The notes under the pieces were generated by a model, which had not been told where the DNA came from, searched no databases, and saw only the letters and a list, made by a program, of their open reading frames with translations. Shown here in pieces: positions 2,091-3,102 of a stretch of 6,941 bases of DNA. This DNA is from a virus (taxonomy: Duplodnaviria; Heunggongvirae; Uroviricota; Caudoviricetes): IMG/VR virus record IMGVR_UViG_2541047442_000018; one strand, given 5' to 3'. Positions within the stretch are counted from its first letter, which is position 1. Each line of letters opens with the position of its first letter. The position numbers were made by a program, and so were the translations under genes.

Positions 2091-3102
2091 AAAGGTGAAA
2101 ACCGGCAGTTCATCCAGTAAGTCAGTATTGACCTGGCTTGCTGATATGTGCGGTGCCGATTTGTGTGCATACCCGTCTGTATCTGCACTGGCAGAAGTAA
2201 CGGAACTGAACAAAAAGACTGTGCAGGACAGCTTACGACACCTGATGGAGATTGGGTTAATTGTTGATACCGGTGAGAGAAAAGGCAGAACAAAGCAAAT
2301 TGTGGTGTACCGACTTATCGGTGTAGAAGAAAGTGTTGCCGAGCCTGAATACACCCAAAAACGGGAGTCTTTAAAGGTGGGTAAAATTGGTGCTGTTAAT
2401 AAAAACAGTACCGAAAATGGTTATGTTTCAGCACAAAACAGACCCAAAAACAGAACTCTTAGCTGCATGGAAAATAACCAAAGACACCCAAATTTTCCAT
2501 CAAAGACACCCAAAAACGGATCACGGAACCCAAAGGAACCCAAAGATCTAAACCCCACACATAACGCACGCGAGAGTGCTCCGACCAGTGAGCAGGAAGT
2601 TTTGTCGTTACAGGCAGCCCCCCCTGTATTCCTGTATGGCCTGAGCGAACCCATCGGAAAATTCCCGATGAGCGATAGCTGGTATCCGTCACGGGATTTT
2701 CGACGACGGGCTGCGTTGTGGGGGATGGCTTTGCCGGAGACAGAATTTACACCTGCTGAACTTGCCGCCTTCCGGGACTACTGGGCAGCGGAGGGGAAAG
2801 TGTTTACGCAGATTCAGTGGGAGCAGAAATTCGCCCGTCACGTAAATCACGTCAGGGCGCAGGTTAAACCAGTCAGCAAAGGGGTAAACCATGCAGCAGC
2901 ACCAGGTGGCACCGCATCACGGGCAGTTCAGGAAATTCGGGCAGCACGTGAGCAGTGGGAACGTGAAAACGGATTTATCAGCGACGGAAACGGCCTGGAA
3001 GCTGTGGGAACTCATGGGGGTGGTTTATTCGAACCGCTGGATCCAGAAGAACGGGGCCGCACCTTCGAAGCTCTGGATTGCACAGATTGGCGCGATGACT
3101 GA
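2062..3102 (+). CDS. replication initiator, lambda-O-like (N-terminal HTH, low-complexity linker, C-terminal DnaT-like region)
   Basis: Seen in sequence: ATG 2062 follows the G-rich SD AGGGGGG (2053..2059). The N-terminus MSIDALRWAKKVKTGSSSSKSVLTWLADMCGADLCAYPSVSALAEVTELNKKTVQDSLRHLMEIGLIVDTGERKGRTKQIVVYRLIG is a typical phage replication-protein HTH. A P/K/N-rich linker coincides with a DNA repeat array. The C-terminal part (SDSWYPSRDFRRRAALWGMALPETEFTPAELAAFRDYWAAEG...) is DnaT-like from recall. The ORF-track start at 1987 is less likely because it would overlap the upstream gene by 104 nt. Confidence 0.8.
   Translation: MSIDALRWAKKVKTGSSSSKSVLTWLADMCGADLCAYPSVSALAEVTELNKKTVQDSLRHLMEIGLIVDTGERKGRTKQIVVYRLIGVEESVAEPEYTQKRESLKVGKIGAVNKNSTENGYVSAQNRPKNRTLSCMENNQRHPNFPSKTPKNGSRNPKEPKDLNPTHNARESAPTSEQEVLSLQAAPPVFLYGLSEPIGKFPMSDSWYPSRDFRRRAALWGMALPETEFTPAELAAFRDYWAAEGKVFTQIQWEQKFARHVNHVRAQVKPVSKGVNHAAAPGGTASRAVQEIRAAREQWERENGFISDGNGLEAVGTHGGGLFEPLDPEERGRTFEALDCTDWRDD
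2432..2545. repeat. iteron-like direct repeats inside the initiator gene (candidate replication origin)
   Basis: Seen in sequence: core ACCCAAA occurs 5 times (2443, 2486, 2508, 2528, 2538). CAAAGACACCCAAA is repeated at 2479..2492 and 2501..2514 (22-bp period), and GGAACCCAAAG is tandem at 2525..2535 and 2535..2545. A relatively AT-rich stretch lies just upstream (about 2389..2440). Confidence 0.4.

What the first reader, a model, noticed from the sequence alone, without database searches (positions are those of the whole stretch)
2432..2545. Iteron-like repeat array inside the O-like initiator gene: candidate origin of replication
Five ACCCAAA cores and two longer repeat units lie within about 115 bp, exactly in the part of the initiator ORF that encodes a low-complexity P/K/N-rich linker between the N-terminal HTH and the C-terminal domain. 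In phage lambda the origin (four iterons plus an AT-rich segment) lies inside gene O at the equivalent inter-domain position. Here the AT-richer segment is upstream of the repeats instead of downstream, and the periods are irregular (42, 22, 20, 10 bp), so this would be a variant layout.
Basis: partly seen in the sequence, partly recalled or inferred. Interest (0 to 1): 0.55.

Follow-up and report, generated by a model that had tools for sequence, protein, structure and literature searches.

The report
Replication-origin repeats inside prophage initiator gene
The repeats are real and are very probably the binding sites (iterons) of the prophage's replication origin, written into the part of the initiator gene that encodes a floppy linker, which is the arrangement long known from phage lambda, so this is a solid but ordinary find.

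Summary
The window is the immunity and replication module of an E. coli lambdoid prophage (99.7% identical to 'PPompW' prophages): repressor, cro, YdaT/cII-like gene, initiator (2062-3102), P-like helicase loader.

ACCCAAA occurs six times in 6.9 kb, always on the + strand and always between 2353 and 2544, in all three reading phases.

Relatives show the true unit is a 12-mer, ACCCAAAAACGG:
- Strong copies lie at 2353, 2442 and 2508, with a weaker one at 2409 and a decayed one at 2379.
- The ACCCAAA at 2486 is a conserved variant element.
- Those at 2528 and 2538 are a lineage-specific 10-bp tandem.

Among 77 non-redundant homologues of the N-terminal winged-helix domain, 47 carry at least four copies of their most-repeated 10-mer directly after that domain. 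In 42 of these the copies fall in two or more reading phases, often at 17- or 22-nt periods, so the repeat is selected as DNA, not as peptide.

The array goes with the N-domain and not the C-domain. Rac YdaU shares the C-half but has neither. Phage GF-2 joins this N-domain and its repeats to a lambda-O C-domain.

Binding and origin firing are inferred, not shown. No sharp AT-rich unwinding element was found, and PPompW prophages are reported to be defective. This is a new member of a known kind.

The parts
844..1251 (-). Prophage repressor (DicA/CI-like HTH)
   Evidence: Pfam HTH_3 at 4e-14 and Phage_CI_repr. Annotated dicA in PPompW.
1328..1555 (+). Cro/DicC-like regulator, first gene of the rightward operon that reads through the array
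   Evidence: Pfam P22_Cro at 3e-13.
1539..2090 (+). YdaT / cII-like gene; its end overlaps the initiator start
   Evidence: Pfam YdaT_toxin. PHROG 163, CII-like activator, at 3e-40.
2062..3102 (+). Replication initiator gene, 346 aa: winged-helix N-domain, disordered linker, DnaT-like domain
   Evidence: PHROG 1032, replication initiation protein, at 9e-91. Pfam DnaT at 9e-17 and HTH_36 at 20.9 bits, which is below the 25-bit cut-off. AlphaFold model. Foldseek match to DnaT structures 4OU6 and 6AEQ at 49-59% identity.
2062..2331 (+). N-terminal winged-helix DNA-binding domain (aa 1-90), the presumed iteron reader
   Evidence: pLDDT 87-96, four helices followed by a two-strand wing. Weak fold matches to winged-helix regulators and RepA_N plasmid initiators. 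Codon-position conservation of 0.87/0.94/0.60, the pattern of protein-level selection.
2345..2545 (+). Iteron array, the candidate initiator-binding part of the origin; encodes part of the disordered linker
   Evidence: All six ACCCAAA copies lie here. A weight matrix built only from relatives hits only here in the whole window. There is no codon-position pattern: 0.70/0.71/0.67.
2353..2364 (+). Iteron 1, ACCCAAAAACGG (perfect), read as T-Q-K-R
   Evidence: Weight-matrix score 33.4 bits. 95% conserved at all 12 positions in 15 enteric-clade genes.
2379..2390 (+). Decayed iteron, GGGTAAAATTGG, orthologous to iteron 2 of relatives
   Evidence: Aligns with ACCCAAAAACGG of EPP-1, L082 and L094. 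Below the weight-matrix threshold.
2409..2420 (+). Weak iteron, TACCGAAAATGG
   Evidence: Weight-matrix score 17.0 bits. Sister E. coli alleles read ...AACGG.
2442..2453 (+). Iteron, ACCCAAAAACAG (1 mismatch)
   Evidence: Weight-matrix score 28.6 bits. Sister alleles read ...ACGG.
2486..2498 (+). Conserved variant element, ACCCAAATTTTCC: an iteron half followed by a T-tract
   Evidence: Present at the same position in every enteric-clade relative, as ACCCGTTTTTTCC or ACCCAATTTTGG. Not scored as an iteron.
2508..2519 (+). Last iteron, ACCCAAAAACGG (perfect), read as P-K-N-G
   Evidence: Weight-matrix score 27.3 bits. 95.6% column conservation.
2525..2544 (+). Perfect 10-bp tandem, GGAACCCAAA x2, holding the two 3'-most ACCCAAA cores
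   Evidence: Relatives read GGAATCTACCAAGGAACCATAAAG here. One E. coli allele has lost one copy, which frameshifts the gene.
2382..2431 (.). Least stable 50-mer within the gene; the best, but weak, candidate unwinding segment
   Evidence: Nearest-neighbour dG of -59.0 against a window mean of -68.4 with sd 5.1. GC of 0.30-0.35.
2542..2560 (+). Mosaic junction (peptide LNPTH): DNA homology to Rac-type ydaU begins here
   Evidence: The megablast match to Rac-SA53 ydaU starts at query position 479, and the match to phage pPE4 at 483.
2662..2862 (+). DnaT-like ssDNA-binding domain (aa 201-267)
   Evidence: Pfam PF17948 at 9e-17. Foldseek matches to 6AEQ and 4OU6, rmsd 0.9 A.
3095..3556 (+). Lambda-P-like helicase loader; its start overlaps the initiator stop (ATGACTGA)
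   Evidence: Pfam Phage_lambda_P at 4e-16. PHROG 109, P-like helicase loader, at 2e-54.

Best explanation
The array is the initiator-binding part of the prophage's replication origin. It is a set of same-strand 12-bp iterons with consensus ACCCAAAAACGG (extended form AAAGACACCCAAAAACGGnnnTGTT), written into the stretch of the initiator gene that encodes a disordered inter-domain linker.

Shown here:
- The motif is confined to this spot.
- It is conserved as DNA, independent of reading frame.
- Its position immediately after the winged-helix domain is conserved across a large family.
- It is inherited together with that domain.

Inferred, by analogy with lambda O/ori-lambda and with iteron plasmids:
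1. After derepression, transcription from the cro-side promoter produces the initiator.
2. Its N-terminal winged helix binds the iterons and builds a multi-protein complex on A-tract-rich DNA.
3. This destabilises nearby AT-richer DNA, for which 2382-2431 is the best candidate.
4. The DnaT-like domain holds the exposed single strand or contacts the loader.
5. The P-like protein encoded next door delivers host DnaB.

In this particular allele two iterons carry single substitutions away from consensus and one is decayed, so the origin may be weakened.
For: - Enrichment: 6 of 6 ACCCAAA copies fall in 192 nt, all on the + strand, with 1.17 expected.
- Reading phases in the window are 1, 3, 2, 3, 2, 3.
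- A weight matrix built only from relatives finds 2353, 2409, 2442 and 2508, and nothing else on either strand of the window apart from one weak reverse hit overlapping 2409. Random sequence gives 0.26 hits on average.
- Family scale: in 77 non-redundant loci, 266 of 432 copies of each locus's top 10-mer lie in gene nt 250-520, which is 8% of each locus. In 47 loci at least 4 copies lie there, and in 42 of these 47 the copies use 2 or more phases. The spacing modes are 17, 18, 22 and 24 nt.
- Enteric clade (N-domain 68-79% aa identity): conservation by codon position is 0.87/0.94/0.60 in the N-domain but 0.70/0.71/0.67 in the array. The first and last iterons are 95% conserved at every position, although they are read in different frames, as TQKR and PKNG.
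- Linkage to the N-domain: Rac-SA53 YdaU shares the C-half at about 90% nt identity from window position 2542 onward, but has a different N-domain and no repeats. EPP-1 and Edwardsiella prophages have the same N-domain and iterons with a Phg_2220_C C-domain. GF-2 has the family N-domain and repeats fused to a C-half 62% identical to lambda O aa 156-299.
- Lambda's annotated iterons occupy gene nt 349-433, the equivalent position.
- Structure: the N-domain is a confident winged helix, the array-coding part is disordered, and a P-like loader gene follows.
- Published precedent: iterons inside lambda O, P22 gene 18 and phage L gene 18 (PMC8022706).
Against: - There is no experiment on this element or, as far as I could find, on any member of this initiator family.
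- No sharply AT-rich unwinding element adjoins the array. The lowest GC is 0.30 over 40 nt, inside the array. The family-average AT dip 3' of the arrays is only about 0.05, and the window lacks it.
- No DnaA-box enrichment.
- The window allele has fewer good iterons (3 strong, 1 weak) than relatives (4-7). Two of them differ from the consensus that sister alleles keep.
- PPompW prophages are described as defective (PMC8112680).
- The N-domain shows no significant profile similarity to lambda O (hhalign probability 2%), so the functional analogy rests on architecture and not on demonstrated homology.
Confidence: 0.7

Rival explanations
1. The sites are bound by the initiator but serve mainly regulation (autorepression, titration, handcuffing or incompatibility) or act as a roadblock, while strand opening and helicase loading happen elsewhere in the prophage.
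For: No clear unwinding element lies next to the array. In iteron plasmids the same repeats also perform copy control (general knowledge; reviews PMC4980987 and PMC5043065 are listed but were not read). The least stable DNA in the window is intergenic, at 5105-5184 and 1239-1318.
Against: No copy of the motif occurs anywhere else in the window or in 13 kb of PPompW. There is therefore no second cluster that could be the 'real' origin. The position matches that of ori-lambda within O. The array, and not any intergenic region, is the element that travels with the N-domain across module swaps.
Confidence: 0.15
2. The array is a relic. It was an origin in the ancestral phage, but in this defective prophage lineage it no longer fires.
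For: PPompW prophages carry multiple inactivating lesions and are not packaged (PMC8112680). The window allele has T at 2418 and A at 2452 where sister alleles keep the consensus CGG, and the second iteron is decayed. A frameshifted allele of the initiator exists.
Against: The initiator and P-like reading frames are intact in the window. The allele is 99-100% identical in 764 E. coli records. Three iterons remain perfect or differ at one position. An 8.46-kb circular record consists essentially of this module, although that record may be an assembly artefact.
Confidence: 0.3
3. The DNA repeat is only a by-product of a repeated peptide (P-K/E-N-G) selected in a low-complexity linker, or of neutral slippage in an unconstrained linker.
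For: The linker is P/K/N-rich and disordered. In some relatives (phiV10, Vibrio H20, GF-2) the repeats are in-frame 24-nt tandems encoding PKNG or PENG. Copy number varies in 8-aa steps among E. coli phiV10-like alleles. Slippage is seen directly at the 10-bp tandem.
Against: The same 12-mer is read in different frames within one gene, as TQKRE, RPKNR and TPKNG. In 42 of 47 arrays the copies use 2 or more phases, and periods of 17 and 22 nt are common. Third codon positions in the iterons are as conserved as first and second positions, whereas in the N-domain they are not. Neutral slippage would not hold a 12-mer at 95% identity across genera while its spacers and spacing change.
Confidence: 0.05

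Closest known systems
Phage lambda O protein and ori-lambda (also P22 gene 18 and other lambdoid O genes)
   Same: The origin repeats lie inside the initiator gene, just 3' of the N-terminal DNA-binding domain. In lambda they occupy gene nt 349-433 of 900; here they occupy 292-483 of 1041. The repeats and the N-domain form a specificity module that recombines with different C-terminal or loader-interaction modules. A P-like helicase loader gene follows, with overlapping stop and start codons. The gene order is the same: repressor, cro, cII-like, O-like, P-like.
   Different: The N-domain is not Pfam Phage_rep_O, and hhalign to lambda O is not significant. The iterons are asymmetric 12-mers in one orientation with irregular spacing (26, 30, 33, 44, 22), not four 18-bp units as annotated in the lambda record (their internal dyad symmetry is textbook knowledge, not tested here). 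There is no distinct AT-rich block 3' of the repeats. The C-domain is DnaT-like rather than lambda-O-like.
Salmonella phage L gene 18 putative origin (Casjens and co-workers, PMC8022706)
   Same: Short direct repeats (11 bp, TGTCCAACGGA, x6) inside the initiator gene were proposed as the origin from sequence alone. They are annotated as rep_origin at gene nt 397-473.
   Different: L gp18 is not detectably related to this N-domain (hhalign probability 1.8%, no HTH_36 hit). L has a clear AT-rich run after the repeats. Its partner is a DnaB-type helicase, not a P-like loader.
phiV10 / epsilon15 gp43-type 'primosomal protein' and bacterial DopC (HTH_36 + DnaT C-terminal domain; PMC5509034)
   Same: The domain architecture is the same, HTH_36 plus a DnaT domain followed by a P-like gene. 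phiV10 carries 5-7 CCAAAAACGGGA repeats at the same place.
   Different: The N-domain is 42% identical to phiV10's over the aligned 78% of the query. The phiV10 repeats are regular, in-frame 24-nt tandems. The domesticated DopC genes were reported to lack iteron-like repeats and not to mark an origin (PMC5509034), which fits the idea that the repeats are a phage-origin feature.
Iteron origins of theta plasmids (RK2, R6K, pSC101, P1, F; winged-helix Rep proteins)
   Same: Direct same-orientation repeats, often at about 17-22 bp periods in family members, presumably read by a winged-helix domain. There are weak fold matches to RepA_N initiators 4PQL, 4PT7 and 5KBJ.
   Different: The repeats lie inside the initiator's own coding sequence. 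No DnaA boxes were found. The helicase arrives through a P-like loader. The element is a prophage, not a plasmid.

Membership tests
Lambda-type origin (ori-lambda / O-P replicon) | The initiator carries the Phage_rep_O N-terminal domain (PF04492). | tested here: not met
   Pfam gives HTH_36 (20.9 bits) and DnaT, with no Phage_rep_O hit. Lambda O itself scores 123 bits for PF04492. The hhalign comparison of the family N-domain profile with lambda O gives probability 2%.
Lambda-type origin (ori-lambda / O-P replicon) | The initiator-binding repeats lie inside the initiator gene, directly after the DNA-binding domain. | tested here: met
   Array at gene nt 292-483. The N-domain ends at about nt 270. 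The lambda iterons are at gene nt 349-433.
Lambda-type origin (ori-lambda / O-P replicon) | About four iterons of 18-19 bp with internal dyad symmetry. | tested here: not met
   The unit is an asymmetric 12-mer, with all copies on one strand and irregular spacing. Only the variant element at 2486-2498 is partly palindromic.
Lambda-type origin (ori-lambda / O-P replicon) | An AT-rich unwinding block immediately 3' of the iterons. | tested here: not met
   GC at gene nt 440-520 equals the locus mean in the window. The AT-richer DNA (GC 0.30-0.40) lies within the array. The family-average dip 3' of the arrays is only -0.05.
Lambda-type origin (ori-lambda / O-P replicon) | A P-type helicase loader is encoded immediately downstream. 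| tested here: met
   PF06992 at 4e-16 and PHROG 109 at 2e-54. The start overlaps the initiator stop.
Lambda-type origin (ori-lambda / O-P replicon) | The initiator binds the repeats, and the fragment supports initiator- and loader-dependent replication. | not testable with these tools
   This needs EMSA or footprinting and a trans-complementation replication assay.
HTH_36 winged-helix phage initiators with in-gene repeat arrays (phiV10 gp43 / EPP-1 / GF-2 / Bcep176 type) | Homologous N-terminal winged-helix domain. | tested here: met
   tblastn gives 35-58% identity to these phages over 73-100% of the query. The family profile finds 1392 proteins at E<=1e-6. There are 19 invariant residues, including the DTGE..G.T wing. 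Relatives pass the Pfam HTH_36 cut-off, while the window protein is just below it.
HTH_36 winged-helix phage initiators with in-gene repeat arrays (phiV10 gp43 / EPP-1 / GF-2 / Bcep176 type) | A direct-repeat array directly 3' of the N-domain, conserved as DNA. | tested here: met
   47 of 77 loci have at least 4 copies there, and 42 of these 47 use multiple phases. Enteric-clade alignment. Weight-matrix scan.
HTH_36 winged-helix phage initiators with in-gene repeat arrays (phiV10 gp43 / EPP-1 / GF-2 / Bcep176 type) | The array co-inherits with the N-domain and not with the C-terminal module. | tested here: met
   The same N-domain and iteron occur with DnaT-type or Phg_2220_C-type C-domains. 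The same C-half occurs without the N-domain or repeats in Rac-SA53 YdaU. GF-2 carries a lambda-O C-half.
Plasmid-type iteron origin | DnaA boxes and a defined AT-rich 13-mer-like unwinding element beside the iterons. | tested here: not met
   DnaA-box-like matches are not enriched (21 observed against 14.4 expected) and only two 1-mismatch hits lie near the array. No sharp AT-rich block was found.

The most novel reading that the evidence does not exclude
The winged-helix (HTH_36) phage initiators may form a large, uncharacterised replicon class, with more than 1,300 proteins across Proteobacteria. Two features would set it apart. First, the origin's iterons dictate the amino-acid sequence of the initiator's own disordered linker, so the PKNG/PENG peptide repeats would be translation by-products of binding sites. 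Second, in the DnaT-fused subclass, which includes this window, the initiator itself would capture the unwound strand through a domain borrowed from the host restart primosome. That would be a helicase-loading route distinct from lambda O-P, and it would need no discrete AT-rich unwinding block.
Probability: 0.25. Interest if true: 0.5.

Novelty: new member of a known kind. Interest (0 to 1): 0.3.

Why it matters
It gives a concrete, testable origin map (12-mer consensus and exact sites) for a replication module present in about one in six complete E. coli genomes (905 of 5,426), including O157, O26 and O145 EHEC strains. It extends the lambda rule that the origin lies inside the initiator gene to a different, widespread initiator family.

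Practical uses:
- annotating origins in prophages;
- predicting replication-module compatibility and incompatibility between co-resident prophages;
- explaining why the linker of these proteins looks low-complexity and varies in length.

It does not change any general concept of replication initiation.

Tried and rejected
- DnaA boxes: TTWTNCACA with up to 1 mismatch gave 21 hits against 14.4 expected, so no enrichment and nothing meaningful at the array.
- Promoter and terminator consensus scan of 1000-3700: no promoter-like site and no terminator near the array.
- Homology of the N-domain to lambda O and to phage L gp18 by hhalign: not significant, with probabilities of 2% and 1.8%. Membership in the O family is therefore not claimed.
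- Sequence search of solved structures with the family profile: only marginal DnaT hits. The fold search was needed to confirm the DnaT domain.
- The first protein search, using the N-domain alone, returned mostly fragments. A search with an alignment profile was needed.
- Literature searches for a description of this origin, for oriJ/ydaU, and for iterons in DnaT-type or epsilon15/phiV10 initiators found none. Rac oriJ belongs to a prophage whose YdaU has a different N-domain.
- Helical phasing: spacings of 22, 33, 44, 55 and 66 recur in the enteric clade, but 17, 18, 24 and 26 are equally common across the family. No general phasing claim is made.
- Family-wide AT-rich block: only a shallow dip, and it is absent in the window.
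- Small circular 'plasmid' records carrying the module could be lambda-dv-like replicons. The junction is unique, but an assembly artefact cannot be excluded, so this is kept as a lead only.
- Rfam: only the sok RNA, far from the array.
- Correlating iteron motif with N-domain phylogeny was considered and dropped, because linkage alone would produce that correlation.
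Full report
CONTEXT

The window is the immunity and replication module of an E. coli lambdoid prophage. The initiator gene is 99.7% identical to those of the 'PPompW' prophages of EHEC O145:H28. A 301-nt stretch around the array occurs at 80% coverage or more in 905 of 5,426 complete E. coli genomes.

Gene order:
- repressor, 844-1251 on the minus strand;
- cro/DicC-like gene, 1328-1555;
- YdaT/cII-like gene, 1539-2090;
- initiator, 2062-3102;
- lambda-P-like helicase loader, 3095-3556.

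The initiator is not a Pfam lambda-O protein. It has a weak HTH_36 N-terminal hit and a clear DnaT ssDNA-binding domain at aa 201-267. In the AlphaFold model, aa 1-90 form a confident winged helix, aa 91-194 are disordered, and aa 200-270 fold like DnaT. The fold search matches the DnaT structures 4OU6 and 6AEQ at 49-59% identity. The N-domain matches only generic winged-helix proteins, including RepA_N plasmid initiators, and only weakly.

THE OBSERVATION

ACCCAAA occurs six times in the window, all on the + strand, at 2353, 2442, 2486, 2508, 2528 and 2538. Shuffles give 1.17 on average, and none of 200 reaches six. Longer repeat families are present.

The period given as 42 is actually 44. 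The region is A- and C-rich on the + strand and dips to 36-37% GC. The six copies sit in reading phases 1, 3, 2, 3, 2, 3, so they are not an in-frame peptide repeat.

WHAT THE UNIT REALLY IS

I collected relatives of the N-domain from three sources:
- phage records (loci fetched);
- viral contigs;
- one genome per bacterial species.

The enteric clade has 68-79% amino-acid identity in the N-domain and includes Edwardsiella phage EPP-1, Klebsiella, Enterobacter, Kluyvera, Serratia and Plesiomonas. In this clade the repeated unit is ACCCAAAAACGG, usually within AAAGACACCCAAAAACGGnnnTGTT, with four to seven copies per gene.

A weight matrix built only from the relatives' sites finds four forward sites in the whole 6.9-kb window:
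- 2353 (33 bits);
- 2409 (17 bits);
- 2442 (29 bits);
- 2508 (27 bits).

Random sequence gives 0.26 hits on average.

The alignment places the remaining pieces:
- A decayed copy at 2379-2390 is orthologous to the second iteron of relatives.
- The ACCCAAA at 2486 belongs to a positionally conserved variant element, which reads ACCCAAATTTTCC here and ACCCGTTTTTTCC or ACCCAATTTTGG in relatives.
- The ACCCAAA copies at 2528 and 2538 are a perfect 10-bp duplication (GGAACCCAAA x2). Relatives read GGAATCTACCAAGGAACCATAAAG at that place.

Site starts are therefore 2353, 2379, 2409, 2442, 2486 and 2508, with spacings of 26, 30, 33, 44 and 22.

DNA-LEVEL OR PEPTIDE-LEVEL SELECTION?

Three results point to selection on the DNA.

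1. Codon positions. In the enteric-clade alignment the N-domain shows the codon-position signature of protein selection: column conservation is 0.87, 0.94 and 0.60 at positions 1, 2 and 3. The array shows none (0.70, 0.71, 0.67). The first and last iterons are about 95% conserved at all twelve positions, although one is translated T-Q-K-R and the other P-K-N-G.

2. Position and phase across the family. For 77 non-redundant family loci I took each locus's most repeated 10-mer (up to 1 mismatch) over the whole 3.3 kb, with no prior on position. Of 432 copies, 266 fall in gene nt 250-520, which is 8% of the sequence. In 47 loci at least four copies lie there, and in 42 of those 47 the copies occupy two or more reading phases.

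3. Periods. Spacings of 17 and 22 nt are as common as 18 and 24. Examples:
- Acinetobacter and Burkholderia phage Bcep176: AACAGTCCCAA at 17, 17, 22, 22;
- a Desulfovibrionaceae locus: 17, 17, 17, 22, 22, 22;
- a Beijerinckiaceae locus: 22, 22, 22.

The core differs between clades: CCCAAAAACGG, CCCGAAAACGG, CCCAAAATTGGG, AGTCCCAA, GTAGGGAAAA, ACCAGTCGGG.

The peptide motif P-K/E-N-G seen in many linkers is therefore best read as a translation by-product of the binding site.

LINKAGE TO THE DNA-BINDING DOMAIN

- Nucleotide homology to Rac-SA53 ydaU (about 90%) begins at window position 2542, directly after the array. Rac YdaU has a different N-domain and no repeats.
- EPP-1 and the Edwardsiella prophages have the window's N-domain type and the same iteron, but a Phg_2220_C C-domain.
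- Edwardsiella phage GF-2 joins a family N-domain and three 24-nt repeats to a C-half that is 62% identical to lambda O residues 156-299. The 'N-domain plus repeats' module therefore occupies the place of 'lambda O N-domain plus ori-lambda'.
- Lambda's annotated iterons lie at gene nt 349-433, the equivalent position.
- The motif occurs nowhere else in the window or in 13 kb of a PPompW prophage.

MECHANISM

Shown: a frame-independent, position-conserved array that is linked to the N-domain, lies in the disordered-linker coding region, and is followed by a P-like loader gene.

Inferred, by analogy with lambda and with iteron plasmids:
1. The winged helix binds the iterons.
2. The resulting complex strains neighbouring AT-richer DNA.
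3. The DnaT-like domain engages single-stranded DNA or the loader.
4. The P-like protein brings DnaB.

Weak points:
- I found no sharp unwinding element. The least stable 50-mers within the gene (2382-2431 and 2467-2516) lie inside the array and are only about 1.8 sd below the window mean. The least stable DNA in the whole window is intergenic.
- The family-average AT dip 3' of the arrays is shallow and is absent here.
- DnaA boxes are not enriched.

STATE OF THIS ALLELE

Sister E. coli alleles read CGG where the window has TGG (2418) and CAG (2452), so two iterons are one step off consensus here. One natural allele has lost one copy of the 10-bp tandem, which frameshifts the initiator. PPompW prophages are described as defective (PMC8112680). 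The origin may therefore be weakened or a relic, although the initiator and loader frames are intact.

One lead points the other way. An 8,461-bp circular record (NZ_CP148379.1) consists of repressor, cro, ydaT, initiator and P plus five other genes, with no typed replicon. Its junction is not found contiguous in any of 5,426 complete E. coli genomes. It could be a lambda-dv-like mini-replicon or an assembly artefact.

COMPARISON WITH WHAT IS KNOWN

Origins made of iterons inside the initiator gene are textbook for lambda. They have been noted for P22 gene 18 and, from sequence alone, for phage L gene 18, which has 11-bp direct repeats (PMC8022706).

The HTH_36 plus DnaT architecture was described for the domesticated bacterial DopC. 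That gene was reported to lack iterons and not to mark an origin (PMC5509034).

I found no paper describing the array in this family.

The element works like ori-lambda but fails several membership criteria:
- no Phage_rep_O domain;
- hhalign to lambda O not significant;
- asymmetric 12-mers rather than dyad-symmetric 18-mers;
- no 3' AT block.

It is best filed as a new member of the known kind 'iteron origin embedded in a phage initiator gene'.

VERDICT

The biology is ordinary. Interest is 0.3.

Noticed in passing
window 2525-2544: A perfect 10-bp tandem, GGAACCCAAA x2, is specific to this lineage. The allele in E. coli 2009C_3689 lacks one copy. That frameshifts the initiator, which is then annotated as a separate HTH protein plus a DnaT-like pseudogene. 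This is direct evidence of slippage at the array.
   Followed up: yes
window 2418 and 2452: Sister E. coli alleles (06-00048, STEC306, RSHH22) keep the consensus CGG at both iterons, where the window has TGG and CAG. The window allele is therefore slightly degraded relative to its closest relatives.
   Followed up: yes
window 2542-2560: A sharp mosaic junction. DNA homology to Rac-type ydaU and to Actinobacillus phage pPE4 starts here, at the conserved peptide LNPTH. Many relatives also share AAAGATCTAAACCCCACACAT. This is a likely recombination joint for swapping the origin-specificity module against C-terminal or loader modules.
   Followed up: partly
L164 (NZ_CP148379.1, 8,461 bp circular); also L166 (15.6 kb) and L165 (8.6 kb, linear, Klebsiella): Small 'plasmid' records consist essentially of this immunity and replication module with no typed replicon. 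The 8.46-kb circle's junction is not contiguous in any complete E. coli genome. It may be a natural lambda-dv-like mini-replicon or an assembly artefact.
   Followed up: partly
L008 (Edwardsiella phage GF-2 initiator, locus 1429-2271): A chimeric initiator: a family winged-helix N-domain and three 24-nt repeats joined to a C-terminal half 62% identical to lambda O aa 156-299.
   Followed up: yes
window 2662-2862: The initiator's C-domain is 49-59% identical to the ssDNA-binding domain of host DnaT (PDB 4OU6, 6AEQ; rmsd 0.9 A). This is a phage copy of a restart-primosome domain fused to an origin binder.
   Followed up: partly
proteins P0054-P0137: E. coli phiV10-like initiators occur in length classes 8 aa apart (232, 236, 244, 248, 251... 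271, 279 aa). This fits copy-number variation of a 24-nt repeat in their arrays.
   Followed up: no
window 6131-6280 and 6221-6433: A sok antisense RNA (Rfam RF01794, 104 bits) overlaps a hokD/gef-type toxin ORF. This is a type I toxin-antitoxin locus in the prophage.
   Followed up: no
window 5000-5200 and 5184-5942: A very AT-rich intergenic stretch (GC 0.13-0.23, the least stable DNA in the window) lies upstream of a Paa/AdfO adhesin gene, and it looks like a separately acquired cargo gene.
   Followed up: no
window 3743-4324: A DUF1627 gene (Pfam 5e-93) of unknown function lies directly after the replication genes and is conserved in PPompW.
   Followed up: no
L002 (Rac-SA53 ydaU, locus 2497-3567): The Rac-type initiator shares the DnaT-like half but has a different N-domain and no in-gene repeats. 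Its origin (oriJ in the literature) must be organised differently.
   Followed up: partly
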